From positions 7,992-71,991 of the forward strand of contig CAYZTH010000001.1 of NCBI GenBank assembly GCA_964481435.1: DNA of 64,000 nucleotides, written 5' to 3'. This document shows positions 5,070-58,338 of this stretch, in pieces; position 1 is the stretch's first letter, and every line of letters begins with the position of its first letter. This DNA comes from Candidatus Woesearchaeota archaeon (GTDB taxonomy: Archaea; Nanobdellota; Nanobdellia; Pacearchaeales; UBA284). Position numbers and translations under genes: made by a program. Under the pieces are notes generated by a model that did no database searches, was not told the DNA's origin, and saw nothing but the letters and a program-made list of their open reading frames with translations.

Positions 5070-5669
5070 TTATTGTGTAGAATGGTCAATTAATATATCA
5101 AATTGCTGTTCTTTGTCAAGGGTTATGCAGCAAGCACATCCCTTATCATCAAAACTATTGCAATAAAAGTCATTGTTTTCCTTTGAATCCTTGGCAAAAA
5201 TACTATATGTGCCCGGTTCTAGGATGATTTTATAGTATCCATTAATATCGTCTGCATTTGAAACAGCCATCTTGATTGGCCCAATGACTGGCCTATAGTA
5301 ATTATTAATGACTTGATTGATATTTGTTTTTGGGAAAACAGCTATTTGTGTGATAATTCTGCTTTTAGTGCACATGCTTATATTAACCGGGGGCATGCAA
5401 TTTCCTTCTTTCATATCAACATAGCCCTGGAGCAGGTACTGTATCTGGTCTGTTTTTTTGCAACAAACGCCCATCCCGCAGCCAAGGTCGACTTCAGCAT
5501 AACCTGCCGAGCAGGAATCATGGCAGGAGTAGTTATTCAGTATGCAGGGGCTTTCTTCATTTATTTTCTTTAAAGAATTATTTGTAAAAGCAAATATAAG
5601 GATTATAATTGCGATAACTATCAAGAAAACAACTCCTGCCCAAATCCAAGACTTCTTTTTGTTATCCAT
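5070..5669 (-). CDS. Cys-rich membrane-anchored hypothetical protein
   Basis: 199 aa; single N-terminal TM (IWAGVVFLIVIAIIILIFAF), 17 Cys, several sequons. Confidence 0.3.
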   Translation of the reverse strand: MDNKKKSWIWAGVVFLIVIAIIILIFAFTNNSLKKINEESPCILNNYSCHDSCSAGYAEVDLGCGMGVCCKKTDQIQYLLQGYVDMKEGNCMPPVNISMCTKSRIITQIAVFPKTNINQVINNYYRPVIGPIKMAVSNADDINGYYKIILEPGTYSIFAKDSKENNDFYCNSFDDKGCACCITLDKEQQFDILIDHSTQ

Positions 5670-6143: not shown

Positions 6144-7031
6144 ATGGTCGTCTTCATTATCAAGTGGTTTTATTCATTTTTAAACCTTACGATTTGGAAT
6201 AAAAAACTTTTTAAACCAGAGTTTTCTACTTATAGAATGGGTGGGACTAAAGGCAAAGAAAAAATTGCGGAACTCTGCGGGGCAGTAATGGGTGACGGAT
6301 GGATTGAGGAAAGAGAAAGGGGATTTTTTATAGCGGGAGATCCTTCAGAAGATGGAGAATATTATGACCGGCATTTCTTAAAATTGATAAATGGAGTTTT
6401 AGGAATAAATGCAAAAACAAAAAATTTTCCATATTGGCGCGTTTATGGAATTGCGCTGTATAAAAAAGAATTAATCAGGAAATTGTTAGGTTTTGGGTTA
6501 ACTAAAGGAAAAAAGGTTAAGTCTGCATACGTCCCAGAATGGATATTTAATTCAGATAAAAAAATTGCTTTCTCATTTCTTCGGGGCCTCTTTGATACAG
6601 ATGGTTGTATTTTTTGTCAGAAAGATTATACTAAATATGCCGATGAATTTAACTCAAAATATCATACTAAAATTAGGATAAGAATAGGCTGTATTTCTTC
6701 AAAACTAATAGATCAGATATTTATTTTATGCAAAAAATATGGGTTTAAAGCAGTAAGAAGAACAGTTAAAAGAGGATTTAGTTATCATAGGAATCGTTGT
6801 GACACCCACATTTTAGAAATAAATGAAATTAAAAGCATCGGTAATTGGTTTGATAATCTTAAACCTTCAAACCCCAAGCATGTAACAAAATATTTAATAT
6901 GGAAGAAATTTGGTTTTTGTCCTCCAAAAACCACCCTTAAACAAAGAAAGGATATACTTAAAAATACACTCAACCCCTATAAATTATACGCGGGAGTGTC
7001 GGAGCGGTCAAACGAGAAGCGCTCAAGCTAA
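6144..7031 (+). CDS. LAGLIDADG-family endonuclease, double-motif single chain; 3' end overlaps the tRNA-Leu 5' exon
   Basis: Two LAGLIDADG-like motifs, LCGAVMGDGWI and LRGLFDTDGCI, about 100 aa apart; C-terminal KPSNPKH tail shared with the paralog at 11149-12024. The true start may be the internal ATG near 6235. The TAA stop lies inside the tRNA intron. Confidence 0.6.
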   Translation: MVVFIIKWFYSFLNLTIWNKKLFKPEFSTYRMGGTKGKEKIAELCGAVMGDGWIEERERGFFIAGDPSEDGEYYDRHFLKLINGVLGINAKTKNFPYWRVYGIALYKKELIRKLLGFGLTKGKKVKSAYVPEWIFNSDKKIAFSFLRGLFDTDGCIFCQKDYTKYADEFNSKYHTKIRIRIGCISSKLIDQIFILCKKYGFKAVRRTVKRGFSYHRNRCDTHILEINEIKSIGNWFDNLKPSNPKHVTKYLIWKKFGFCPPKTTLKQRKDILKNTLNPYKLYAGVSERSNEKRSS

Positions 7032-11148: not shown

Positions 11149-12024
11149 TTAATTAAAGTATAAATTGAACTTTTTTAAATGTTTAGGATTAGCAGGTTTT
11201 ATTACTTCAAAAAACCTCTTGATATCCTCTTTTTTATACAAATAAACATTTTTCTTCCTTATGCCAAATTCAAAATCTATAAACTTTAGGCCACCTTTTA
11301 TTTGTTCTAAATAAACAGGGTCCCCACTGGATATTTCAACAACAGGGTCTTTTTTTCTTCTTATATAAAATGTTCCATCTGTATCAAATAGGCCCCTAAA
11401 ATAGTTAGCAAGGAGATTTTTATCAGAAAAAATTTCTTTAGGGATACCTAGTTTCCCCATTTTCCTTCCTTTTGGTAACTCAAATTCTTTTGTTAAAAAA
11501 TCAATTAATTCTTTGGAATATCCCCTTAACTTCAAATAATGATTAAATTTTTCAATATTGAACTTCATTTTAAAGAGTTCTTCAAATTTTTTCTTTAGAT
11601 ACAAGAAATAATTCGTATCACCCAAATTCCCTGTAACAGAAACTTCATGATTTATTTTGCTTAAATGCCCGTCTCCATTAAGAACGCCCAAAACTTCAGC
11701 AAGGTTCTGGTCTAAAATAGGTTTATTTATGCACTTTTTCAAATATTTTTCCATCACAATTATATCAAATTTTTTTGGATTAAATGAAGATATTTTTACC
11801 AATTTATCAAAAGTGATTTGAGGAATTAAGCAATCTCCTCTTTTGTATTTGAAAATCATATCTCTAGTAACCCCTAATTCCTTTGATAAATGGGGATAGG
11901 TAGAAACTTTTTCTTTAGCTTTTTTAAAGAGATTATTTCTTTCTAACGCATTAATCTTTATGAAATTAGCCATAATCCTTAGAAGAATTTCATATTTATA
12001 AATCTTATTATTTCTACTAACCAC
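11149..12024 (-). CDS. LAGLIDADG-family endonuclease, double-motif; stop codon 3 nt before the tRNA-Gly 5' end
   Basis: Motifs LAEVLGVLNGDGHL and FRGLFDTDGTFYI; C-terminal IKPANPKH tail matching the paralog at 6144-7031. Confidence 0.6.
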   Translation of the reverse strand: MVSRNNKIYKYEILLRIMANFIKINALERNNLFKKAKEKVSTYPHLSKELGVTRDMIFKYKRGDCLIPQITFDKLVKISSFNPKKFDIIVMEKYLKKCINKPILDQNLAEVLGVLNGDGHLSKINHEVSVTGNLGDTNYFLYLKKKFEELFKMKFNIEKFNHYLKLRGYSKELIDFLTKEFELPKGRKMGKLGIPKEIFSDKNLLANYFRGLFDTDGTFYIRRKKDPVVEISSGDPVYLEQIKGGLKFIDFEFGIRKKNVYLYKKEDIKRFFEVIKPANPKHLKKFNLYFN

Positions 12025-38079: not shown

Positions 38080-40980
38080 CTAAATTCCCAGATAGTCTAA
38101 TTTTCCAAAAGTGTTCGGATTTGATATATCTACATTCGTCTCCAGATACTCATTATAGTAAGGGGTGTTACTTGGATAATTCACTTTCCAGATCTTAATA
38201 GGTCCCTGGACTCCTCCAGCATAAACAATGTCTCCGATTGTTAGATTATAATTATCCCTAAGCTGTTTCACAAAAGGAGAGGGCTCATTATGCGCCAATA
38301 CAAAGTTTTCTGATTCATCTAGAAGATATAATCTGACCCACTGGGTATTAAGGGCTTTTTCACTTAAGTATAATCCGATTCCAAGATTATTTACTCCTGT
38401 TTGAGAAATGCTTGGAATAATATAAAGCATGGATTCAATCATTTTTTCATTACCTCTTCTCAGGTCATATCTTCTCCCCTGGGCCCATAGATATCTTATT
38501 GGAATACGATACTGTTGGCCATTATAGACCATGACTGCTTCAAGGTTGTTTACTGATTGTGTGTTTTTGTCTATGGTCAATAAAAATAAAGCGATTCCAG
38601 CTCTTTGCATGGGGAATAATTGTCCATTCCAGAGCATATCCTCGTCTATGGCTGTGCCATAATTGCCATTTGCGTAAACATAGATTGTTTCATTCTTTGT
38701 TTCCTGAGTTTGTTTTTGGTCCAGAGAGAAAGTACTTATCCAGCTTAGCCGGTCTAATCCTGTTTTATCAGAGCCGATGCTCGCAAACGCAGAGTACTTG
38801 CCTATATCTGAACTATCAATAAGGACATAGGAAACATTATATGCTTTGCAGACCTGTAGGGCTGTTGATTCATTTTTAGCATCTAGAAGATATCTTGCAG
38901 TGACGTGGTCCCAAAACGCATTCCAGTGACCTCCGTCTGTGACTGTTGGTCTCTGCCCATAGTACTGAACCCAATAACCATAGTCCCACCAGTGCACAAA
39001 TATAGAATCTTTTGGTGTCTCTGTTCTTGTCCACTCCATTGCTTTCTGCCACTGTTCATAATAGGCGCTGTTTACAGTGGCTCTTGCCTCTTGAGTGGCT
39101 GATTGTTCATTATTCAAGAAATTTATTATCAAGAATACTGCAATAAATATCACCACAGCACAGACGAGTATCTTATAAGCGTTCTTCTTTATTGTAAACA
39201 TATATTCAGATAGTTTTACAGGTAAGAATACCGAAGCGATGATTATTGCAGGACTGACGATGAAGAATAATCTGACCGCACCCCTCATGGAGATAATTAT
39301 CCAGAAGAAGAACGATAGTAGAAGAAGGTGTATGAAATTTATTTTTTTTAAGTCTTCATTTAATTTTTCATCTTTTTTTGCATTGGCGTATATGTACATA
39401 AATAGCATTATTGCTACAAAGATAATTATCCCTCCAAAATAGAGGATACTGCTGAAAGCATTTTCTCCATTGAGGATGTCTGAAGCAGAAACCCTTGAAA
39501 AAATGAGATTAAACAATAAGAATGCAAATCCCACATTCAATAGGGAATTCCAATCTTTTTTCTGTATAGAGTGGATTAAAGTGCCTATTGATACGATGAG
39601 ATAAATTCCCAGGAGCATATAGTCCACTGTAGGAGTGAGGTTTGAGAAGATTAATAGCAACCATATCACCAAAGAAATCGCAAGATAAACCGGATAGATA
39701 TATCTTTTCTTGACATCGAAGTGCTTTACAGCTTCATAAAATAAGAGGAAGGTTCCAAAAAGGAATGTCCAGAAGAACCAACTAAAAGACGCCAAGACTT
39801 GCATTACATATGGCGCACTGTTCTCTGCAACAGTTAGGGCTATTCTCCCACCACCAAACGGATTTATTAGTTTTGCAATTATGATATTAAGAGAATCTGA
39901 AAGCAAGCCCCTTTTCAGAATCAGCATAGCGATGATGACTAAAATAACAGAGATTATCAAACTGATTACGCTTTCAGGCAATTTTATCTTGTCTTTGATC
40001 TTCCTTAATTTTGTACTGAAAATAATTTGATCGATTATCAAGACTCCTAAAATAGCAATGCAAAAACCGCTATCTTGCAGAGATAGCAAAGTTCCTCCCA
40101 AACCTACTTTAAACATGGAAAATATCAATGCGGGAATCAGCCACGATGCAAAAATCAAGAGAGTCTTCTTCTTTTCTTTATTGAACAAGAAAGCTATTAG
40201 TGTTGCCAATCCAAAAGCCATAAAAATATATCTGAAACCGCCCCAGCTATAGATCATTATTCCCGTGAATATTCCGGATAAGATTCCAAAAGGAAGCATC
40301 TTCTTGATTTTATCCTGTTTCCATGCTAGAACTATGAACAGAAGAGCTGCCCAGAAGAATACCATTCCCAAGCTCTCAATCTCCGGAATGCCCCCCGTAG
40401 TTCTATGGATTATTTCGGGAGCAACAACATAAAACAAGGTTGCAATCAAAGCGCCAATTGCCGAAAATTTTTTAGGCATCATAAAAGAGAATATTACATA
40501 AAGGAATAAGAAGAATAAAATAAATGCCAGGCCTGAGAAGATGACCGGGGCTATTATTGCAACAAATTCAACACTTTTTTGAGGTCCATGCAGGAAGGGG
40601 CTTAGTATTTTATACAGATAAGCGATTGCCCATGGCATCAGGCTATTTTTAGCATAGCTTGTCGCGCCAAGTGGCGCTGAAGTCATATGGTCTATTGGTT
40701 GATACTGGCCAGAAGAGATATCTTTTGCCAGTCTTAAATATAAAAATGGATCAAGATCCGGACCAAGAGTATAATTTCCATTTGTGACATCTTTTAGATA
40801 AGGAATATTTGTAGTCCTGAGATGGCATCCAAAATAAACAATTACTGCAAGCAAGATAATGACTAGAATGACAAACCAGTACTTTTTGAAGAAAGTTCCA
40901 ATTGATTTGGATGGTGTTTTATCCCCCTTTACCTCCAAATTTTCCTTTTTTTCTGGATTTTCCGTATTCACTTCGTTCAT
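38080..40980 (-). CDS. aglB: oligosaccharyltransferase AglB (STT3 homolog)
   Basis: 966 aa, 13-TM N-terminal domain plus large C-terminal soluble domain; diagnostic WWDYGYW (WWDYG) motif. Confidence 0.9.
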   Translation of the reverse strand: MNEVNTENPEKKENLEVKGDKTPSKSIGTFFKKYWFVILVIILLAVIVYFGCHLRTTNIPYLKDVTNGNYTLGPDLDPFLYLRLAKDISSGQYQPIDHMTSAPLGATSYAKNSLMPWAIAYLYKILSPFLHGPQKSVEFVAIIAPVIFSGLAFILFFLFLYVIFSFMMPKKFSAIGALIATLFYVVAPEIIHRTTGGIPEIESLGMVFFWAALLFIVLAWKQDKIKKMLPFGILSGIFTGIMIYSWGGFRYIFMAFGLATLIAFLFNKEKKKTLLIFASWLIPALIFSMFKVGLGGTLLSLQDSGFCIAILGVLIIDQIIFSTKLRKIKDKIKLPESVISLIISVILVIIAMLILKRGLLSDSLNIIIAKLINPFGGGRIALTVAENSAPYVMQVLASFSWFFWTFLFGTFLLFYEAVKHFDVKKRYIYPVYLAISLVIWLLLIFSNLTPTVDYMLLGIYLIVSIGTLIHSIQKKDWNSLLNVGFAFLLFNLIFSRVSASDILNGENAFSSILYFGGIIIFVAIMLFMYIYANAKKDEKLNEDLKKINFIHLLLLSFFFWIIISMRGAVRLFFIVSPAIIIASVFLPVKLSEYMFTIKKNAYKILVCAVVIFIAVFLIINFLNNEQSATQEARATVNSAYYEQWQKAMEWTRTETPKDSIFVHWWDYGYWVQYYGQRPTVTDGGHWNAFWDHVTARYLLDAKNESTALQVCKAYNVSYVLIDSSDIGKYSAFASIGSDKTGLDRLSWISTFSLDQKQTQETKNETIYVYANGNYGTAIDEDMLWNGQLFPMQRAGIALFLLTIDKNTQSVNNLEAVMVYNGQQYRIPIRYLWAQGRRYDLRRGNEKMIESMLYIIPSISQTGVNNLGIGLYLSEKALNTQWVRLYLLDESENFVLAHNEPSPFVKQLRDNYNLTIGDIVYAGGVQGPIKIWKVNYPSNTPYYNEYLETNVDISNPNTFGKLDYLGI

Positions 40981-44891: not shown

Positions 44892-45899
44892 TTAGTTCAG
44901 AAGCCACCAAATTGTTTTTTTATTACATGCTGCGCAGAGAGGGACTTTATCGAACTCTCCAGCGAGATGATTCTCTCTAATTTTCTTTAATCTCTCTCCA
45001 AACCAGATATCTTCTATACTACCCTCTTTTAGATTTCCTAGGACTTCTCTATGGTTCCAGTCATCGCAGCATAGGACAACATCGCCATTCCAATCAACGA
45101 CCATCTTTTGCCATATGAAGCTGCAAGGCCATCTTTTCTGATTTTTAAAATGAAAGCTTTTCTCAGAATCTTTATCCAGGTTTCCTGCCCAGTTTCTCTG
45201 ATTTAATATGTTAAGGCCATCAACAATATTCTTCCACTGTTTATAGAACTTTTTTATCTCTTTCCTGTTCTCATCAAGTTCGACAAGGACAAGTGAAACC
45301 GAGGGCTTTTTCAGGCCCAGTTCATTTCGCATTTTCATGAAGTTGATTATGTTCTCGCTGGTTTCGTCGAACCTTAATCCTACTCTTATCTTTTCGTAAG
45401 TCTCTTTTGAATATGCATCAAAGCTGATGGTTATCCAGTCTAGGCCAGATTCAATAAGCCTTTTTGATATCTCTAGCCCTAATAGAGATGCATTGCTGTA
45501 GAATCCGACAATCAAGTCTTTGCTCTTCGCATACTTTATCTTCTCGATTATTGTCTGGTCAAGCAACGGTTCTCCGAAAAAAGAAAGAACAACACTTTTG
45601 ACGCCAAAACTTGCGCAATTATCAATTATTTTTTTATATAGGTTCATATCCATAAAACCTATTTCTTTCAGCAGATGATGGGGGCACATGACACAATTAG
45701 AATTGCAAGCATTTGTCGTACCTATATCCAGGCTCATCGGCGGCTTGCCCTCTAAATTTTTTATTACTTTCTTGATTTTTTTATCATAGGCCTTTTTATA
45801 AACGGGACTATTGATTATAAGTCGATTTGATAAGAATGCTCTTCCAATATTAAAACCAAGATTATTTGCCCTTATCTTATTTAGAATTTTCATCAGCAA
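44892..45899 (-). CDS. radical SAM protein with SPASM-like C-terminal Cys cluster
   Basis: LDIGTTNACNSNCVMCPHH (CxxxCxxC); C-terminal CSFIWQ...LCCDDWNH auxiliary cluster region. Confidence 0.65.
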   Translation of the reverse strand: MLMKILNKIRANNLGFNIGRAFLSNRLIINSPVYKKAYDKKIKKVIKNLEGKPPMSLDIGTTNACNSNCVMCPHHLLKEIGFMDMNLYKKIIDNCASFGVKSVVLSFFGEPLLDQTIIEKIKYAKSKDLIVGFYSNASLLGLEISKRLIESGLDWITISFDAYSKETYEKIRVGLRFDETSENIINFMKMRNELGLKKPSVSLVLVELDENRKEIKKFYKQWKNIVDGLNILNQRNWAGNLDKDSEKSFHFKNQKRWPCSFIWQKMVVDWNGDVVLCCDDWNHREVLGNLKEGSIEDIWFGERLKKIRENHLAGEFDKVPLCAACNKKTIWWLLN

Positions 45900-46350: not shown

Positions 46351-46815
46351 TTAAAACTTTAGTATCTTCCTTGCAAGAAGGCTGAAGACAAAACTGAAAA
46401 CTATATAACAGAAGAACCAGCCTCCGCCATCATGAACTATTGGAAGATTTGCTCCCCAGTAAAAAATATTACCAATTTCTGCAGCAGCATACCAACTTCT
46501 CAGAAGACCAAAGATGATTATTACGGGTATGAATGTTATTATCATCGGCTTTAGAGACATCTTAAATGATTGCATGCTTAGCTTCATTATCTCGCTCTGA
46601 AGTTCATTCATCCTTGCAGGGTCTTTGACTGTTTTGATTTCTTTATTCAGTTCTTTCTGCCTTTCTGTTACCTCTTTGTATTTCTTATCTATAGTGAGCT
46701 TGTAGACCCAAGTCAATAAAAAAGAAAGAATCGCAGATACAATAATGATACTTACGAGCCCTTTGGGAAGTCCAATAGGTGCCCATTGAATAAAAGCAGT
46801 GATAAAACTAACCAT
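46351..46815 (-). CDS. DUF106-family membrane protein (archaeal Oxa1/YidC-like insertase)
   Basis: TM1, coiled-coil KELNKEIK...SEIMKLSMQSFKMSLKPMIITFIP, two C-terminal TMs. Confidence 0.5.
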   Translation of the reverse strand: MVSFITAFIQWAPIGLPKGLVSIIIVSAILSFLLTWVYKLTIDKKYKEVTERQKELNKEIKTVKDPARMNELQSEIMKLSMQSFKMSLKPMIITFIPVIIIFGLLRSWYAAAEIGNIFYWGANLPIVHDGGGWFFCYIVFSFVFSLLARKILKF

Positions 46816-46880
46816 CTAAAAGAAAGTCATTTACGGCTTTTAAACCTTATGAAAAGAAAAAAAGAAAAAAATAAAATTAA

Positions 46881-47456
46881 TTAATCCCTTGCGCAACAAT
46901 GATAATGAAATTGACCTGCACAGCATTTTCCATTCTGTGAAAACCAAAACTCATCAAATTTCGCTCCCGGAGTCGTATCTGGAAGCGTCGCATTTGTTAC
47001 AGTTATCAAACATTTACCATCAGAACATCCGTCAGGACAATAAATCAGTGTTCTATTTGCCACATTATTCCAGCAGTAAAATTCTGCAGTTACATTAGAC
47101 ATTGTTACATTTTTACCCTTTTCCCAACAGAAGTCAGTGTAGGTTTTTCCGTTATATCTCACAGTTCCTTTTGTGTAAGGTTTTATTCCACCATCCGTGT
47201 CTGTACAATTTGTTCCGTTACTGGCCGATAACAAAGAACTGGTTGTTGGTGTAAAAAGTGAAGCTCCAGCATACTCGCTATCAGTTGGGGCTGTTGAGAC
47301 TGGAAAAAGTAAGTCTGAGAAGCTTAAACCAATTGCGGCTGCTAATAGAACTGCAACCACCACAAGAACAGCAAAAATTGCCTTGTTATGGCTAGAATTG
47401 TTGTTGTTTTGTATCGCTTTCAAATTATTTTTCATATTAAACCTCCTTTCAATCAA
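46881..47456 (-). CDS. secreted Cys-rich protein, candidate archaeal type IV pilin-like (class III signal peptide?), sequon-rich
   Basis: N-terminus MIERRFNMKNNLKAIQNNNNSSHNK|AIFAVLVVVAVLLAAAIGL has a basic leader then K-A followed by a hydrophobic helix; C-terminal domain has 12 Cys and many N-x-T/S; first 68 aa shared with 47538-48149. Confidence 0.45.
   Translation of the reverse strand: MIERRFNMKNNLKAIQNNNNSSHNKAIFAVLVVVAVLLAAAIGLSFSDLLFPVSTAPTDSEYAGASLFTPTTSSLLSASNGTNCTDTDGGIKPYTKGTVRYNGKTYTDFCWEKGKNVTMSNVTAEFYCWNNVANRTLIYCPDGCSDGKCLITVTNATLPDTTPGAKFDEFWFSQNGKCCAGQFHYHCCARD
47263..47455. repeat. 193-bp direct repeat, copy 1 (5' coding region plus promoter of pilin-like gene A)
   Basis: Matches 47956-48148 with 2 mismatches across 193 bp (read directly). 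Confidence 0.85.
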
Positions 47457-47537
47457 TCTATTTTATTAATTAAAAAGAAGCTAGAATATACTTATATATC
47501 TTTTGAAAAGAAAAAAATAAAAAAAGAAAAAATAAAA

Positions 47538-48149
47538 TTAAACTCCTTGTGGGAAATAGCACGCGTCCCAGCAATAATCTTTGTTATTGTATTTTATCAT
47601 ACATACTTCATAGCAAAGGGATGATGCGACATCCATTTCCGCTCTAGCTTCGCCATAAATTTCATTTGATACATTAAAGCATGCCCCATTACTGCAGCTT
47701 AAATTATATGCCAAGCAGTTATATTCCGTGTAGCGACATTCATCTTTTAAACAGTAGAACTCCCTGAGCCATGATCTGCTCTTACAGAAGTCTGTGCAAA
47801 TCCAAGTTGAATTATAATAAACGCAACCCGTTTTATTTAAATTCATTTTAGGGGCCCGGGTTATACCCTTTAGATAGATGTTTGCACCACCATCAGAATC
47901 TGTGCAATTCGTCTGATTTCCTAAAGTTAGGCTTGTTCCCATTCCGCCTAAACTTGCTCCAGCATACTCGCTATCAGTTGGGGCTGTTGAGACTGGAAAA
48001 AGTAAGTCTGAGAAGCTTAAACCAATTGCGGCTGCTAATAGAACGGCAACCACCACAAGAACAGCAAAAATTGCCTTGTTATGGCTAGAATTGTTGTTGC
48101 TTTGTATCGCTTTCAAATTATTTTTCATATTAAACCTCCTTTCAATCAC
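47538..48149 (-). CDS. secreted Cys-rich protein, paralog with identical N-terminal 68 aa and divergent C-terminal domain
   Basis: Same leader/TM as 46881-47456 (1 aa difference), then unrelated Cys-rich, sequon-rich C-terminus. Confidence 0.45.
   Translation of the reverse strand: MIERRFNMKNNLKAIQSNNNSSHNKAIFAVLVVVAVLLAAAIGLSFSDLLFPVSTAPTDSEYAGASLGGMGTSLTLGNQTNCTDSDGGANIYLKGITRAPKMNLNKTGCVYYNSTWICTDFCKSRSWLREFYCLKDECRYTEYNCLAYNLSCSNGACFNVSNEIYGEARAEMDVASSLCYEVCMIKYNNKDYCWDACYFPQGV
47956..48148. repeat. 193-bp direct repeat, copy 2 (5' coding region plus promoter of pilin-like gene B)
   Basis: Near-identical to 47263-47455. Confidence 0.85.
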
Positions 48150-48208
48150 TTAAAATTATGATAATAGCTAAGTTAGAAGCGGTTTATATATCTTTTTACA
48201 GAATATCT

Positions 48209-49594
48209 TTACTGTGCTGCAACAAACTTTCTAGCCAATGGACTTGAATCCATTGCATGCTGCTGAGCAATATCCTCATACATCTTGTATAAGATCATGA
48301 CTGCAAGCAGGATTCCTGTTCCCCGAACTAATGCCCCAGTTATATCTGCCAGAGCAGCGATTAAACCAACTGCTGCTCCTCCCATGATTGTTAGTGGCAT
48401 GATGTATCTAGATAAGATTGATTCTATTACTCGTGGGTCTCTTCTGAATCCAGCTACTTGTAATCCGCTTGAAGAAATCTGACTAGCCTGATTTGAAGCA
48501 TCCATCCCCGATGTTTTGACCCAGAATACTGCAAATACAATTGAACCAGCTACCATGAACAGGATATAAAATAGTGATTGAGCAAGCATAACTGGTTGTA
48601 AAGATCCCTTGATTATCGGTTCAATTATCCCATTGTTTGGAGGGGATAGCCAAAATGCGAGTCCTGATTGTGCAACGCCGTTGCTGAAATGCCCTAGGAA
48701 AGTGGCTTTCTTTGCAACATTTTCTGCCAGTGTCGCAACAAGTTGCAGATTAGCGTGCAGAGCAGCAGTCAAAATAACGGGGATGTTACTTGTATAGAAA
48801 AATGATAGCGGCCACCGGATATTCATTCCACGGATTCTTCCGAAAGATAGGGGGACCTCGACTTTGATTGATTGCGTATAAACCACAACAAAGAAAACAA
48901 CAACTGTTGCAGCAATAGCTGCAAATGCAACACTAGCAGTTATAATTGATCCTGGACTGCTTGGATTAATTAATGAGTTGATTAAGACCAATACCTTTCC
49001 TGTTGGTTGGATAACTCTTCCAGCCCCTAGGAAGCCGAATGCTTTTGTGAAAAGCTGCCAGGCAACACCACCGACAATGAATAAACTGACTCCCGAACCA
49101 AATCCATATTTAGAGACTACTTCATCCATAAGCAGGACCATTACTCCTCCGATGATTAATTGAAGTATAACCAGCCACTCAAATCCAGGCATTGCTCTGA
49201 TTCCGCCCATAAGGACGTAGATTAGCGCTTCGAAAACAACGAAGAATAAGGATAGTACTTTTTGCAGACCCTCAAAGAGTTTTTTCCCGTTTGGATCCTG
49301 TAAATCAATATTCAATATTTTTGAACCAACTAAAAGTTGCAATACGATAGATGCAGTAACAATCGGCCCGATACCTAGGCTCATCAGGCTGCCGAAGCTT
49401 GCTCCAAAGATGATTGATAAGAATTCGAATTGGCTTAGGGCACTTGCTTCAAGTTTATACAATGGGATATTAGAGAGAATGAAAAAGAAACCAAGTATAA
49501 TTAAAGTCCACTTCAACCTCTTACTGAACTCTAATTTTTTTTCAGCAGGGCCCTCGACTGCAGGCAAGTTCAACAATAAATCCTTTAAGGCCAT
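48209..49594 (-). CDS. secY: preprotein translocase subunit SecY
   Basis: 461 aa, 10 TM; collinear with SecY/Sec61alpha; located after L15 as in the ribosomal protein cluster. Confidence 0.9.
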   Translation of the reverse strand: MALKDLLLNLPAVEGPAEKKLEFSKRLKWTLIILGFFFILSNIPLYKLEASALSQFEFLSIIFGASFGSLMSLGIGPIVTASIVLQLLVGSKILNIDLQDPNGKKLFEGLQKVLSLFFVVFEALIYVLMGGIRAMPGFEWLVILQLIIGGVMVLLMDEVVSKYGFGSGVSLFIVGGVAWQLFTKAFGFLGAGRVIQPTGKVLVLINSLINPSSPGSIITASVAFAAIAATVVVFFVVVYTQSIKVEVPLSFGRIRGMNIRWPLSFFYTSNIPVILTAALHANLQLVATLAENVAKKATFLGHFSNGVAQSGLAFWLSPPNNGIIEPIIKGSLQPVMLAQSLFYILFMVAGSIVFAVFWVKTSGMDASNQASQISSSGLQVAGFRRDPRVIESILSRYIMPLTIMGGAAVGLIAALADITGALVRGTGILLAVMILYKMYEDIAQQHAMDSSPLARKFVAAQ

Positions 49595-55305: not shown

Positions 55306-56019
55306 TTAGCCAAATCCGCCTTGTTCAAACTTTTTATAGTATACAAATACAACAACCGCTGCAATTAATATAGCGAATACGACCAAGGCAAATATGTTTG
55401 CTGAAGATATTAAGAATAGCATCAACAAGCTAATGACCAGCACAAATATTGTCATTATCCTTGATCCATTGAATATCTTGAATCCTATTCCCACCGGTAT
55501 TAAAGATAAGACCGCAAGCCAGACCGGGTAGATAGCCAAAGTTCCAAGTCCAACAATTTTCAAAATTACTGCAAAAATTAATGAAGCAACTGGTCCAGAT
55601 AATCCTATCTTGGCAATATCCCTCTCTTCCATCTCATACCACTTCCTCCGCATTCTGGACTGCATTGGTTCGAAGTCAAAAGTAAGTATTGAAGACCAGA
55701 GGAAATGTCCAAGACTTACGAAAAATGAGATTAAAGGCAGGAATAGCCAAATTGGGAAAGCCCACTTTAATTTGAATCTGTCTTCCCACCAGTATCTTCT
55801 GAAAGAGAGTAGTTTTACTTTAATATTACAATTGTAATAATAGGCAGTTATTTTCATTCCTAAGATGAATAAAAAAACCATCACCAAAGAGAATGCAAGA
55901 AGAAGCCATATTTGTGCTGTTTCAAAATAAAGAAATTTTCCCACTATCTTCATAGACATAAGTAGTCCTAAAAGAACTGATGCAACTATCCACGCAACCA
56001 CCTCATCAAAAGTAAACAT
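55306..56019 (-). CDS. hypothetical polytopic membrane protein
   Basis: 237 aa, ~6 TM; adjacent to the FlaI-like ATPase. Confidence 0.3.
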   Translation of the reverse strand: MFTFDEVVAWIVASVLLGLLMSMKIVGKFLYFETAQIWLLLAFSLVMVFLFILGMKITAYYYNCNIKVKLLSFRRYWWEDRFKLKWAFPIWLFLPLISFFVSLGHFLWSSILTFDFEPMQSRMRRKWYEMEERDIAKIGLSGPVASLIFAVILKIVGLGTLAIYPVWLAVLSLIPVGIGFKIFNGSRIMTIFVLVISLLMLFLISSANIFALVVFAILIAAVVVFVYYKKFEQGGFG

Positions 56020-56049: not shown

Positions 56050-58338
56050 TTATCTATTTTTTTTCAACTCTTTTTTAATCCATTCTTCCCAGTCTTTGTA
56101 GACCCTCTTTCCCTTTGGAAGCCCTATTTCTCTCTCGACTTTTTCAGAAATATCATGAAAAGCATTATTTGATTTTGTCACCCACTCTGCTTCAAGCAGT
56201 TCAGGCATCTTGGCCTTCACACTCATCTCAACAAGAGATTGTTTTATCTTTGCCCTAAGAAGTATATTATCCCAGACAGCATCCCACGAGCCTGCCCACC
56301 CTTTTACATTTGAAGCGATTTCTTTTAGGACTTCTGACTCACCATTTATAAAATCATCAGTTGCTTTTAGATCATCTTTTATGACATCGTACTTCATCAA
56401 GTCCAAGAATCCTTTTTCAGCCAGGGGATCGGTCTGCCAGTGTTTCCTAACTTCTGTAATTTCTAATAATCTTCTCCACCGGTGCATACCATCTGAACTT
56501 TTTATTGGATTTACAACAGCGATTATATCTGTTGCTTTGAAACTTGTGGTTGGAACTTTCAAATCATTTACAACCCTGTCAAAGACACCATAGGCACTAG
56601 CTCCATGAATTGTACCTGCAACAACATTTGCTAAAGCGCCAACTCTCATTGCTTCATATAATGCCAAGGCTTCCTGACTTCTGACTTCTCCAACTATCAA
56701 GCATGAGTCTCCTAATCTTAGTGAAGTCCTAATACCCTCATCCGCAGCCATCTCCGTAGTCTCTCTTGCAAGAGCTTCTCTGACTTTCATTCTTAGAATA
56801 TCATAATTTAGGCCCCTCATTGCAACAACCGGCAACTCCATTGTTCCTTCAATAACAATGACTCTGTACTTGTTCATAATCTCAATCATACAGGCCCCAA
56901 GTAATGATGTTTTTCCTGAGCTTCGTGTTCCAGCTATCAGTAGGGTTCTCCCTCCATCAATTAAAAAACTTAAGAGTCCGGCGGACATGGCATTAAGCAT
57001 CTTATTCTTGATGAATAAGGGCAGAGTCCATGGTTTCTCCCTATGTCTTCTGAAAGCATATGCTAATCCATACGGGCTTAGGGGTTGTTGGATAATTGCT
57101 ACTCTTGCTCTTGCTGTTCCAATTTCTAACTCTGTGTCAAGAACAGGATTAGCTTCATCTAAAGGTCTGCCTGACATCATTCTGAACTTAGCTGCCCATG
57201 AATCAACATCTTCTTGGCTTGGAACAATATTTGTATCACACTCGTCATACTCCTGATGCCTAACAAACATAGGAACTGCTCCTGCAGGACTATTTACCAT
57301 AATATCCTGTAAATTCTCATCCTGCAATAATACCTCAACTAATCCGAAGCCAATTGTGCTTCTGACTAAGATTGTTGCAAGCTTGTTTATCTGCTTGAAA
57401 CCGAGGTCCATTTTTCTTGAAGTAGCAATCTCTTGTAAAAGGTCCTTTGCGATATTAAAAAAAACTTGTCTGATTCTTGAAGGGTCTGTAAATTCTTCAG
57501 ACCTTGGCTTATGCTCTAAGAGAACATTTCTTGCAACATTTACAAGATTCTGCAAGTCCTCATTTAAACCGAACTCAGGTGAATTCAGATGATAGAGATA
57601 TTTAGTTTGATTTGGAATCTTCAGGATAGTTACTGTGCTTCGGTCATAATCTGCCCCAATTTCATATTCATCAATTATCTCCGCATCAGCAGGAATTGAA
57701 GCAACAAGCCTCGTGAATGTAAAGTTTGGGATTACTTCTGCTCTGAAAAGGTCTTGATATATTTTTCTATCTTTTAGTTTGTAATCCTTCATGCCCTCTG
57801 CGGCATTCTTTATCAGTTTGGTCTTTTGCAGCATCAATATTATCTTTGCCAAAAGTCTAAGAAAATCTTCCTGGCACTTAGAACATTCAGGAACAACATT
57901 CGGGACACTCGCTTTCTCTTGTTGATAGATTCTCTTTGCCTCAACATAGCAGGCAATAGGGTCTTGTTTCAATAGAGTCAGGATAAGATATCTCATTGCA
58001 TCATATCTCTTTGCCAGGCATCTTTTGCATGAAAAAGGTGCGAGGGTCGTAGTTAGGAGAATTCGGTCCTGTTTGATAAGCTTTTCATACATTTGTGCAA
58101 TCTCTAGCAGCATCTCCATTTGCCCATAAGGATAACTGTAGTTTCTCTGTTGGACAAAAACAATCTTGGAAGCTGATGGAACTTCAATAAAATAGTCTAT
58201 TGCTCTTGACATGATAACTGCAGAATCCGCAATATCCGGAACTCCGGCAGCGCCCATATAATTTACATAGATTACGTCCTGTCCCGCCTCTCTCTTTATT
58301 TCATAAGCATAGAGCTTAGTATCATTTTTAAACATCAT
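56050..58338 (-). CDS. type II/IV secretion-system ATPase (FlaI/TadA/VirB11 family) with long N-terminal domain
   Basis: Walker A GTRSSGKTS, VIVIEGTMEL, Asp/His boxes LIVGEVRSQEA and GTIHGASA, collinear with T2SS-E ATPases. Confidence 0.6.
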   Translation of the reverse strand: MMFKNDTKLYAYEIKREAGQDVIYVNYMGAAGVPDIADSAVIMSRAIDYFIEVPSASKIVFVQQRNYSYPYGQMEMLLEIAQMYEKLIKQDRILLTTTLAPFSCKRCLAKRYDAMRYLILTLLKQDPIACYVEAKRIYQQEKASVPNVVPECSKCQEDFLRLLAKIILMLQKTKLIKNAAEGMKDYKLKDRKIYQDLFRAEVIPNFTFTRLVASIPADAEIIDEYEIGADYDRSTVTILKIPNQTKYLYHLNSPEFGLNEDLQNLVNVARNVLLEHKPRSEEFTDPSRIRQVFFNIAKDLLQEIATSRKMDLGFKQINKLATILVRSTIGFGLVEVLLQDENLQDIMVNSPAGAVPMFVRHQEYDECDTNIVPSQEDVDSWAAKFRMMSGRPLDEANPVLDTELEIGTARARVAIIQQPLSPYGLAYAFRRHREKPWTLPLFIKNKMLNAMSAGLLSFLIDGGRTLLIAGTRSSGKTSLLGACMIEIMNKYRVIVIEGTMELPVVAMRGLNYDILRMKVREALARETTEMAADEGIRTSLRLGDSCLIVGEVRSQEALALYEAMRVGALANVVAGTIHGASAYGVFDRVVNDLKVPTTSFKATDIIAVVNPIKSSDGMHRWRRLLEITEVRKHWQTDPLAEKGFLDLMKYDVIKDDLKATDDFINGESEVLKEIASNVKGWAGSWDAVWDNILLRAKIKQSLVEMSVKAKMPELLEAEWVTKSNNAFHDISEKVEREIGLPKGKRVYKDWEEWIKKELKKNR

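What the first reader, a model, noticed from the sequence alone, without database searches (positions are those of the whole stretch)
46881..48149. Tandem secreted Cys-rich, sequon-rich proteins sharing an identical leader via a 193-bp repeat: pilin-like cassette pair
Two adjacent minus-strand genes share an N-terminal 68 aa (basic leader, K-A junction, then a 20-aa hydrophobic helix, resembling an archaeal class III/type IV prepilin signal). The 193-bp DNA stretch spanning promoter, RBS region and 5' coding sequence is 99 percent identical between them (2 mismatches). The C-terminal ~130 aa are unrelated to each other but both Cys-rich (12-16 Cys) with many N-x-S/T sequons. Their T-rich 3' flanks are also similar. 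Conserved ends with a swapped internal domain suggests recent duplication plus gene conversion, or cassette-style variation of a surface filament subunit or adhesin. The nearby AglB locus would glycosylate them.
Basis: seen in the sequence. Interest (0 to 1): 0.65.

Follow-up and report, generated by a model that had tools for sequence, protein, structure and literature searches.

The report
Swappable archaeal surface glycoprotein gene pair
Two neighbouring genes of a small DPANN-type archaeon encode sugar-coated, disulfide-rich surface proteins whose starts are almost identical in DNA while their outer parts are exchanged between strains, a modest example of surface-protein shuffling rather than a demonstrated pilus.

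Summary
Two complete minus-strand genes (47538-48128, 196 aa; 46881-47435, 184 aa) share a 193-nt stretch (47956-48148 and 47263-47455) that differs at 2 bases. It covers the ribosome-binding site and the first 60 codons. One claim is wrong: the C-terminal parts are related. Both carry one copy of a ~67-aa six-cysteine beta domain (CxDSDGG...EYYC...CPxGCxNGAC). That domain has no Pfam, NCBIfam or PDB match, yet it occurs in more than 5000 protein clusters, whose few source-named members are DPANN archaea plus one CPR bacterium. Only the last ~40 residues differ in kind: a twin CX3C hairpin in gene A and CC-X7-CC in gene B. The genes occupy a variable slot between secY and an EMC3/YidC-like gene. 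In related genomes the flanks and the 5' module are 77-90% identical, but the ectodomain-coding DNA is replaced. A 680-bp contig from another sample joins the gene A promoter directly to the gene B body. N-terminal and C-terminal parts have incongruent relatives. I read the pair as N-terminally anchored or secreted N-glycoproteins, homogenised by gene conversion and diversified by module exchange. A prepilin (class III) signal is neither shown nor excluded: the K-A site exists but is not conserved among homologues. Moderate interest.

The parts
47538..48128 (-). Gene A (196 aa, P0001). Layout: N-terminal module, then a 9-Cys variant of the CxDSDGG domain, then a twin-CX3C tail ending YFPQGV.
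   Evidence: ORF; sequence; exact protein present in public collections; domain and tail split; AlphaFold model.
46881..47435 (-). Gene B (184 aa, P0002). Layout: the same N-terminal module, then a canonical 6-Cys CxDSDGG domain, then a DxxPGxxFDE motif, then a CC-X7-CC tail.
   Evidence: Identical DNA occurs in L015 and L016.
47956..48148 (-). 5' module, copy A. It covers the Shine-Dalgarno-like GGAGG (48135-48139), the ATG (48126-48128) and codons 1-60, ending in ...E-Y-A-G-A.
47263..47455 (-). 5' module, copy B. It differs from copy A at 2 bases: one changes N to S, the other is synonymous.
48184..48196 (-). TATA-like box AAAAGATATATAA upstream of gene A. AAAGATATATAA is invariant in all five aligned loci.
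   Evidence: Alignments. Reading it as an archaeal promoter is an inference.
47492..47504 (-). TATA-like box upstream of gene B. The rest of this promoter region differs from gene A's at 19 of 53 positions.
47670..47915 (-). Region of gene A coding for the CxDSDGG beta domain (aa 72-153).
   Evidence: hmmsearch domain table. pLDDT 85-97.
47001..47216 (-). Region of gene B coding for the CxDSDGG beta domain (aa 74-145).
   Evidence: pLDDT 96-98.
47541..47669 (-). Variable tail of gene A (aa 154-196), CX3C-X9-CX3C, predicted as two helices at low confidence. The same tail type occurs in P0004.
   Evidence: DNA match to the L002 tail at 76%.
46884..47000 (-). Variable tail of gene B (aa 146-184), ...SQNGKCCAGQFHYHCCARD. 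The same tail type occurs in P0008.
   Evidence: Predicted unstructured.
47505..47537 (-). Oligo-T tract after the gene A stop codon, terminator-like.
   Evidence: Sequence; repeat D2. Reading it as an archaeal terminator is an inference.
46851..46880 (-). Oligo-T tract after the gene B stop codon, terminator-like.
48209..49594 (-). secY, the conserved upstream flank of the variable slot.
   Evidence: Pfam SecY, E = 1e-59. Synteny in L001, L002, L014, L016 and in P0006's contig.
46351..46815 (-). EMC3/TMCO1-like (YidC-like) membrane protein gene, the conserved downstream flank of the slot.
   Evidence: Pfam PF01956, E = 2e-10. Synteny.
38080..40980 (-). AglB/STT3 oligosaccharyltransferase, the likely glycosylating enzyme. 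It is not part of the locus proper.
   Evidence: Pfam STT3 and AglB core hits.

Best explanation
Gene A and gene B are tandem paralogues encoding small, exported, N-glycosylated, disulfide-rich cell-surface proteins of a DPANN-type archaeon.

Each protein has three parts:
1. A conserved N-terminal targeting/anchor module. It consists of an 18-residue basic n-region, a ~21-residue hydrophobic helix, a juxtamembrane GLSFSDLLF segment, and a Ser/Thr/Pro-rich stalk ending in E-x-A-G-A-S.
2. One copy of a widespread but unannotated six-cysteine beta domain (CxDSDGG...KG...DxC...EYYC...CPxGCxNGAC).
3. A short, variable, cysteine-constrained tail.

Inferred mechanism: the Sec translocon inserts the protein N-in/C-out. 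AglB glycosylates the many sequons. The ectodomain is displayed on the stalk, or released if the signal is cleaved. The variable domain surface and tail provide binding specificity.

Shown at the DNA level: the genes sit in a variable slot directly downstream of secY. The near-identical 193-nt 5' module results from recent gene conversion or unequal recombination between the two copies. The module (5' side) and the tail/oligo-T/EMC3 flank (3' side) behave as homology arms through which ectodomain-coding segments are exchanged between strains and between paralogous loci.
For: Export and surface location:
- The proteins have a basic n-region plus a hydrophobic helix. The models show helix 18-43, then a low-confidence linker, then a confident beta domain.
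- Cys and sequon content are far above the window's other proteins, and AglB is nearby.
- The same domain occurs in up to 15 tandem copies in proteins that begin with an N-terminal hydrophobic segment, several of them lipobox-like. Those proteins also carry Kazal, dockerin, PEGA, CARDB and PKD domains.

Shared domain: BLASTP; profile search with 5222 clusters at E <= 1e-3; six conserved Cys in 913 of 1037 domain instances.

Gene conversion: differences are 2/190 in the module, 19/53 upstream and 19/26 downstream. Orthologous modules differ by 11-22%.

Slot and exchange:
- L001, L002, L014, L016 and P0006's contig all place a type-1 gene downstream of secY, each with a different ectodomain.
- L012 is a hybrid of the gene A promoter and the gene B body.
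- Identities are incongruent:
  - P0001/P0002: N-part 98%, C-part 45%.
  - P0002/P0008: N-part 34%, C-part 70%.
  - P0006/P0040: N-part 31%, C-part 73%.
  - P0007/P0009: N-part 36%, C-part 79%.
Against: - There is no experimental or expression data.
- The function of the domain is unknown. Foldseek finds no match to solved structures (best E about 1).
- Whether the N-terminus stays as an anchor, is cut by signal peptidase I (possible A-I-G|L site) or is cut by a prepilin peptidase (K-A|I) could not be decided.
- L012 is only 680 bp and comes from a mixed metagenome. It could reflect an ancestral single-gene state, or less likely a mis-join, rather than a recent deletion.
- Only five type-1 loci were recovered, so the exchange frequency is unknown.
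- The rest of this genome could not be searched for more module copies.
Confidence: 0.6

Rival explanations
1. The two proteins are type IV pilin-like subunits, possibly modular pilins. The N-terminus would be a class III signal cut by a PibD/FlaK-type peptidase between K18 and A19. The shared hydrophobic helix would form a filament core, and the variable ectodomains would decorate the filament. The parallel is the Haloferax volcanii PilA1-6 pilins, which share one H-domain.
For: - K at -2 and A at -1 directly precede the hydrophobic helix. This is the minimal rule quoted in PMC4371748, which also describes PilA1-6 with a near-identical H-domain.
- Relatives P0009 and P0011 match the stricter FlaFind-like pattern.
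- P0009 lies 63 nt downstream of a gene that passes the Pfam threshold for Peptidase_A24.
- A FlaI/TadA-like ATPase lies 8 kb away in the window.
Against: - The -1 residue is not conserved among homologues with the same architecture: P in P0005, and R-F or R-Y in P0007, P0008, P0014, P0018, P0040 and P0070.
- The FlaFind-style pattern, as I recall it, fails for both window proteins because of F at +2.
- No Pfam class III signal or pilin model matches at E <= 1.
- A ~30-residue low-confidence Ser/Thr/Pro linker separates the helix from the domain. This is unlike pilins, where the helix packs on the globular head.
- The window holds no A24 peptidase. No PilC-like protein was found among the neighbours scanned.
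- The identity extends beyond the H-domain to the ribosome-binding site and the stalk. That indicates DNA homogenisation, not selection on the helix alone.
Confidence: 0.2
2. The proteins are carriers or precursors that release the short cysteine-rich C-terminal peptides as toxins, inhibitors or signals. Release would occur by cleavage at the conserved D-x-S/T-P-G-x-x-L/F-D/E motif, possibly after maturation by the nearby radical SAM/SPASM enzyme.
For: - The tails are discrete, recurring, disulfide-framework types: CX3C-X9-CX3C, CC-X7-CC and others. They are swapped independently of the domain.
- A conserved SPG motif precedes the tails.
- A radical SAM/SPASM gene lies three genes downstream, and the same gene order is seen in P0006's contig.
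- Large relatives carry Kazal inhibitor domains.
Against: - The radical SAM/SPASM protein scores below every NCBIfam cut-off, including the peptide maturases. It is separated from the pair by EMC3 and prefoldin, so the synteny may be plain lineage gene order.
- An N-terminal export signal is atypical for radical-SAM-modified precursors, which are modified in the cytoplasm (established knowledge of sactipeptide and ranthipeptide systems).
- Some family members have no tail at all (P0003, P0011, P0170).
- There is no protease, transporter or immunity gene in the slot.
Confidence: 0.1
3. A plain recent tandem duplication followed by very fast divergence of the 3' two-thirds. There would be no recombination with other loci or strains.
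For: The arrangement is tandem and head-to-tail with a 693-nt period, and both the promoters and the terminators are similar.
Against: - Each 3' part has closer relatives in other genomes than in its neighbour. Gene B versus P0008 is 70% over 113 aa, against 45% over 67 aa versus gene A. Gene A versus P0070 is 58%.
- The promoter region just upstream of the module is already 36% diverged, while the module is 1% diverged.
Confidence: 0.05
4. Metagenome assembly artefact: two strain variants of one gene stitched in tandem.
For: The window appears to derive from a metagenome-assembled genome: its proteins occur on metagenome contigs in public collections, and repeats are error-prone there. L012 shows an alternative join.
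Against: - An independent assembly (L016, ERZ27248961) has the identical tandem arrangement over 5594 bp.
- The two copies differ at two bases and have different promoters, so each junction is uniquely supported.
- Logan contigs end at the repeat, as expected for a true repeat.
Confidence: 0.03

Closest known systems
Haloferax volcanii adhesion pilins PilA1-PilA6 (paralogues with a nearly identical signal-peptide H-domain; PMC4371748)
   Same: Several paralogous surface proteins in one archaeon share an almost identical N-terminal hydrophobic segment with divergent, N-glycosylated C-terminal parts. A charged residue followed by a small residue precedes the helix.
   Different: - Here the identity is at the DNA level. 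It includes the ribosome-binding site, the n-region and 20 residues beyond the helix.
- The putative cleavage site is not conserved in homologues.
- A long flexible linker and a six-Cys domain follow the helix.
- The genes are tandem, next to secY.
- No pilus machinery is linked, and processing is untested.
Multigene surface-protein families diversified by gene conversion or segment exchange (Neisseria pilE/pilS; Mycoplasma vsp/vlp-type families). Comparison from my own knowledge.
   Same: Conserved 5' and 3' segments flank variable segments. There are tracts of near-identity with sharp edges, and variant arrangements occur in related populations.
   Different: - Both copies here are complete, promoter-bearing genes, not silent cassettes.
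- Only one or two copies occur per slot.
- No phase-variation repeat or dedicated recombinase was seen.
- The organism is an archaeon with no immune-evasion context.
Polymorphic toxin architectures (CdiA-CT, Rhs, MafB), where a conserved motif demarcates a swappable C-terminus. Comparison from my own knowledge.
   Same: Conserved N-terminal part. A short conserved junction motif (E-x-A-G-A-S) precedes the exchangeable C-terminal parts. The same C-terminal part is found behind different N-terminal parts.
   Different: There is no immunity gene after either gene. No recognisable toxin domain is present. The proteins are tiny, and the exchanged unit is a disulfide-rich binding-type domain.
Tandem-repeat CxDSDGG-domain proteins labelled Micrarchaeota, Bilamarchaeaceae, Woesearchaeota, Pacearchaeota, Nanoarchaeota, Diapherotrites or Uhrbacteria by their sources. 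Some are annotated only as 'Kazal-type serine protease inhibitor family protein' because of an N-terminal Kazal domain.
   Same: The same ~67-aa six-Cys domain, an extracellular context and many sequons.
   Different: Those proteins are 300-2000 aa long with 3-15 tandem copies, and most begin with a short N-terminal hydrophobic segment, several with a lipobox-like L-S-G-C. The window genes have a single copy behind a long anchor/stalk module, plus a variable tail.
Diversity-generating retroelement targets in DPANN/CPR (PMC5758913, PMC8144416, found)
   Same: Diversification of surface proteins in ultrasmall symbiotic prokaryotes.
   Different: No reverse transcriptase was found among the window ORFs scanned. 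The repeat is at the 5' end and includes the ribosome-binding site. There are only 2 mismatches. The diversity here comes from segment replacement, not adenine mutagenesis.

Membership tests
Archaeal type IV pilin / class III signal peptide protein | G/A/S at -1 and a charged residue at -2 immediately before the hydrophobic H-domain (PMC4371748) | tested here: met
   Both proteins have ...H-N-K18-A19|I-F-A-V-L-V-V-V....
Archaeal type IV pilin / class III signal peptide protein | Processing site conserved among homologues | tested here: not met
   P0005 has K-P. P0007, P0008, P0014, P0018, P0040 and P0070 have R-Y or R-F. Only P0009, P0011 and P0170 have K-G.
Archaeal type IV pilin / class III signal peptide protein | FlaFind-type pattern [KRDE][GA][ALIFQMVED][ILMVTAS]x3 (pattern quoted from memory of Szabo et al. 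2007) | tested here: not met
It matched only P0009 and P0011 within the small family. The real FlaFind program was not available.
Archaeal type IV pilin / class III signal peptide protein | Match to a curated pilin or class III signal model | tested here: not met
   No such Pfam or NCBIfam hit at E <= 1.
Archaeal type IV pilin / class III signal peptide protein | N-terminal helix continuous with and packed on the globular domain | tested here: inconclusive
   The AlphaFold models show helix 18-43, then ~30 residues with pLDDT 47-55, then the domain. A low-confidence linker argues against the feature but is not proof.
Archaeal type IV pilin / class III signal peptide protein | Genetic linkage to PilB/PilC/prepilin peptidase | tested here: inconclusive
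   A FlaI/TadA-like ATPase lies 8 kb away. No PilC-type hit was found among the neighbours scanned, and the window holds no A24 peptidase. Relative P0009 is adjacent to a Peptidase_A24 gene.
Archaeal type IV pilin / class III signal peptide protein | Cleavage by prepilin peptidase and assembly into a filament | not testable with these tools
   This needs biochemistry or proteomics.
Unnamed six-Cys CxDSDGG extracellular domain family | ~67-aa unit with six conserved Cys, a D-x-D-G-G loop after Cys1, E-[FY]-Y-C and C-P-x-G-C-x-x-G-x-C | tested here: met
   Invariant columns in alignments A3 and A6. Domain HMM hits in both proteins. Gene B has exactly 6 Cys in the domain; gene A has 9 through insertions shared with P0070.
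Silent-cassette antigenic variation locus (pilE/pilS type) | One expressed gene plus promoterless, 5'-truncated donor copies | tested here: not met
   Both copies have a TATA-like box, GGAGG, an ATG and a full ORF followed by an oligo-T tract.
Silent-cassette antigenic variation locus (pilE/pilS type) | Conserved segments flanking variable segments, with evidence of segment transfer | tested here: met
Polymorphic toxin system | Cognate immunity gene immediately downstream of each variable C-terminus, and a recognisable toxin domain | tested here: not met
   Gene A is followed by gene B, and gene B by EMC3. There are no Pfam hits.
Diversity-generating retroelement target | Reverse transcriptase plus a template/variable repeat pair differing at adenines, at the 3' end of the target | tested here: not met
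   No reverse transcriptase among the window ORFs scanned. The repeat is 5'-terminal with 2 mismatches.
RiPP precursor with radical SAM/SPASM maturase | Small cytoplasmic precursor adjacent to a maturase of a recognised family | tested here: not met
   The precursors carry export signals. The radical SAM/SPASM gene is three genes away and scores below all NCBIfam cut-offs.

The most novel reading that the evidence does not exclude
In this DPANN lineage, the position just downstream of secY is a dedicated exchange site for surface 'warheads'. A portable unit of promoter, ribosome-binding site and anchor module supplies the homology. A small set of such modules sits at two or three loci: the secY slot, a locus between two ~800-aa unannotated proteins, and a locus beside the prepilin peptidase gene. 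Through them, six-Cys domains and cysteine-framework tails are shuffled between loci and strains to retune host or partner recognition. This would be an archaeal, recombination-based counterpart of bacterial surface variation. It would be built on a very large domain family that no database yet describes.
Probability: 0.3. Interest if true: 0.65.

Novelty: new variant of a known kind. Interest (0 to 1): 0.42.

Why it matters
DPANN archaea are thought to live attached to other cells, and what they use for attachment and recognition is largely unknown.

This locus gives a concrete, testable candidate: small glycoproteins whose outward-facing parts are exchanged by recombination while the export/anchor part is kept identical.

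It also flags a six-cysteine domain present in thousands of protein clusters that has no Pfam, NCBIfam or solved-structure counterpart. That makes it a useful target for domain curation and structural work.

Beyond that, it is a fairly ordinary case of paralogue gene conversion.

Tried and rejected
1. Metagenome scan with the N-terminal module alignment. 599 pattern matches were found, but none was confirmed by tblastn, probably because the query is short and hydrophobic.
2. DNA pattern scan of metagenomes. My pattern used TTY where the window has TTG, so it recovered only the L002 contig.
3. Protein search with the module alignment alone. Nothing scored, presumably because of the composition filter. 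I therefore could not list genes that carry the module with other C-termini.
4. Genome-collection scan with P0001. It returned only one distant locus, labelled Woesearchaeota. The window's own genome is not among the species representatives, so the rest of the genome could not be searched for more module copies.
6. Exact look-up of P0001 on contigs failed, although P0002, SecY and EMC3 look-ups worked.
7. Cluster look-up gave no names or accessions.
8. Literature searches for a description of the domain or of DPANN cysteine-rich surface proteins found nothing specific.
9. A scan of the window for other proteins with the juxtamembrane TG-x-S-F motif found none.
10. DGR and RiPP readings were considered and rejected, as set out in the membership tests.
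Full report
**What is in the sequence**

Two complete minus-strand ORFs lie between secY (48209-49594) and an EMC3/TMCO1-like membrane protein gene (46351-46815). Taking the ATG that follows GGAGG as the start, as in all homologues, gene A is 47538-48128 (196 aa) and gene B is 46881-47435 (184 aa).

A 193-nt direct repeat (47956-48148 versus 47263-47455) differs at two bases, with blastn E = 4e-96. The 64-kb window holds no third copy. The repeat runs from GATTGAAAGGAGG through the ATG to codon 60, ending at GCTGGAGC (E-Y-A-G-A).

The edges of the identical tract are sharp:

| Region | Differences |
|---|---|
| Inside the module | 2/190 |
| Promoter region just upstream | 19/53 |
| Just downstream | 19/26 |

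A TATA-like AAAGATATATAA element is invariant upstream of both genes and of three related genes. An oligo-T tract follows each stop codon.

The arrangement is not an assembly artefact. An independent assembly (L016) is identical over 5594 bp, and short-k assemblies stop at the repeat (L015, L017).

The C-terminal parts are not unrelated. BLASTP aligns the two proteins to about residue 150. Both contain the motif series N-C-T-D-[ST]-D-G-G...Y-x-K-G...T-D-F-C...E-F-Y-C...C-x-x-G-x-C.

A profile of nine family members finds 5222 representative clusters at E <= 1e-3, and 1493 at E <= 1e-10, among 1.84 billion representatives. Up to 15 matched stretches occur per protein. Of 1037 full-length domain instances, 913 have exactly six Cys and the median length is 69 aa.

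Source labels on hits name Micrarchaeota, Bilamarchaeaceae, Woesearchaeota, Pacearchaeota, Nanoarchaeota, Diapherotrites and one Uhrbacteria (CPR).

The domain has no Pfam, NCBIfam or PDB sequence match. The Kazal hits in large relatives belong to a separate N-terminal domain.

AlphaFold models built with 73-74 aligned sequences give a confident all-beta domain: pLDDT 85-97 in A and 96-98 in B. It is preceded by helix 18-43 and a ~30-residue low-confidence linker. Foldseek against the PDB finds nothing better than E about 1.

Gene B has the canonical six-Cys form. Gene A has a nine-Cys variant with insertions, shared with P0070.

Only the last ~40 residues differ in kind:
- Gene A ends in CX3C-X9-CX3C, modelled as a low-confidence helical hairpin, then YFPQGV. 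This tail recurs in P0004.
- Gene B has D-T-T-P-G-A-K-F-D-E followed by CC-X7-CC. This tail recurs in P0008.

**Evidence that they are exported glycoproteins**

- The N-terminus has three Lys in 18 residues followed by ~21 uninterrupted hydrophobic residues.
- The proteins carry 8 sequons each: 3.9-4.2 per 100 aa, against a window median of 0.30 and a 95th percentile of 1.48.
- They contain 5.2-6.4% Cys, against a median of 0.83%.
- AglB (38080-40980), a large glycan-biosynthesis cluster, SecD/F, SecY and the EMC3/YidC-like gene are all in the window.
- Relatives combine the domain with dockerin, PEGA, CARDB, PKD and Ig-like domains, and begin with N-terminal hydrophobic segments, several of them lipobox-like.

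Export and glycosylation themselves are inferred, not shown.

**The locus is a variable slot**

Every gene found with this type of N-terminus lies downstream of secY (window, L001, L002, L014, L016 and P0006's contig).

- L001: secY plus the module match at 89.5% as far as window position 47945, and the EMC3 side matches at 88% from 46882. Between them there is no DNA similarity. L001 carries a single gene with two domains and no tail.
- L002: the 5' end through N-C-T-D-S-D-G-G (77%) and the tail (76%) match gene A, but the domain core does not.
- L014: an MntA-like nucleotidyltransferase and a 131-aa gene are inserted between secY and the family gene.
- L012: this 680-bp contig from another sample joins the secY end and the gene-A-type promoter (4/52 differences) to the gene B alleles of the module and the gene B body (1/27 differences). 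That is the product expected from recombination between the two modules, or else the ancestral single-gene state.

**Mosaic history**

Splitting family members at the A-G-A-S junction gives incongruent identities:

| Pair | N-part identity | C-part identity |
|---|---|---|
| P0001/P0002 | 98% | 45% over 67 aa |
| P0002/P0008 | 34% | 70% over 113 aa |
| P0006/P0040 | 31% | 73% over 182 aa |
| P0007/P0009 | 36% | 79% over 163 aa |

At least three N-terminal types exist, and two others sit in different conserved loci:
- One lies between two ~810-840-aa unannotated proteins (L005, L009).
- One lies directly downstream of a Peptidase_A24 gene (L008).

The simplest reading has two parts. Ectodomain segments move between loci and strains, with breakpoints in the stalk between the A-G-A-S motif and the first Cys, and again before the tail. 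Within this genome, the two 5' modules have recently been homogenised by gene conversion.

**Pilin or not**

- For: K18-A19 satisfies the minimal archaeal rule (PMC4371748). The shared helix recalls Haloferax PilA1-6. P0009 sits next to a Peptidase_A24 gene. A FlaI/TadA-like ATPase lies 8 kb away.
- Against: the site is not conserved in homologues of the same architecture (K-P, R-F, R-Y). The FlaFind-like pattern, as I recall it, fails. No pilin model matches. A long flexible linker separates the helix from the domain. The window has no A24 peptidase. The identity is a DNA tract that includes the ribosome-binding site and the stalk.
- An alternative signal peptidase I site (A-I-G|L) at the end of the helix is also possible (my inference).

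I give the pilin reading about 0.2.

**Other readings**

- Peptide-precursor reading (tails released, possibly matured by the radical SAM/SPASM gene at 44892-45899): weak. The enzyme scores below all family cut-offs and is separated from the pair by two genes. Some family members also lack tails.
- DGR: excluded (no reverse transcriptase among the scanned ORFs; a 5' repeat with 2 mismatches).
- Plain duplication with divergence: contradicted.

**Verdict**

This is a real, well-delimited feature.

It is a new variant of a known kind: paralogous surface-protein genes with a converted constant region and exchangeable variable regions. It is built on a large, uncurated DPANN/CPR domain family. Interest is moderate, about 0.4.

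Noticed in passing
Relatives P0007, P0009, P0011, P0014, P0018-P0021, P0027, P0030, P0038, P0040, P0043, P0054, P0070, P0077, P0105, P0106, P0114; window genes aa 35-45: Many DPANN proteins with the CxDSDGG domain carry a short motif, (I/M)-T-G-x-(S/A)-(I/F)...(L)-F, just after the N-terminal hydrophobic segment. The window genes have the variant I-G-L-S-F-S-D-L-L-F. It may be a processing or sorting signal. No other window protein has it.
   Followed up: partly
window 5070-5669 (-): Another small N-terminally anchored, cysteine-rich ORF (199 aa, 6% Cys, 3 sequons). It has no Pfam match and is unrelated to the CxDSDGG domain.
   Followed up: partly
window 44892-45899 (-): A radical SAM/SPASM gene three genes downstream of the pair. 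The same order, family gene - EMC3 - prefoldin - rSAM/SPASM, is seen in P0006's contig. It scores below every NCBIfam cut-off, so its substrate is unknown.
   Followed up: partly
L008 3889-4938 and 5001-5705: A 349-aa gene passing the Pfam threshold for Peptidase_A24 (prepilin peptidase) lies 63 nt upstream of family member P0009. The N-terminus of P0009 (K-N-K-G|F-V-A-L) fits a class III signal pattern.
   Followed up: partly
L005 2455-8525; L009 3042-9100: Family members with the second N-terminal type (P0007, P0014) sit in a second conserved locus, between two ~810-840-aa proteins without meaningful Pfam hits and near MJ0538-like and LTD-domain genes.
   Followed up: partly
L014 1130-2051: In one relative, an MntA-like nucleotidyltransferase gene and a 131-aa gene are inserted between secY and the family gene. 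They may be a toxin-antitoxin pair. This suggests the slot accepts foreign insertions.
   Followed up: partly
window 56050-58338 (-) and 55306-56019 (-): A 762-aa FlaI/TadA-like secretion ATPase with a long N-terminal extension sits next to a 237-aa membrane ORF that has no family match. No PilC-type hit was found among the neighbouring ORFs scanned.
   Followed up: partly
window 6144-7031 (+) and 11149-12024 (-): Two free-standing ORFs with LAGLIDADG-like domains.
   Followed up: no
window ~15400-42400: A large glycan-biosynthesis cluster leading up to AglB. It includes GT10- and GT11-like fucosyltransferases, UDP-galactopyranose mutase, GDP-mannose dehydratase, a DegT aminotransferase, a B12-binding radical SAM protein, a fused cupin-epimerase-methyltransferase of 787 aa, and two flippase-like genes.
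   Followed up: no
window 46816-48208: In many archaea the gene after secY is adenylate kinase (my own knowledge of the spc-operon end). Here that position is occupied by the variable surface-protein genes, and no adk lies between secY and the EMC3-like gene.
   Followed up: no
window 47352/48045 and 47407/48100: At both mismatches of the 193-nt repeat, the coding strand has A in gene B and a non-A base in gene A (AAC/AGC and GCA/GCC). With only two sites this is compatible with chance, and no reverse transcriptase is present.
   Followed up: partly
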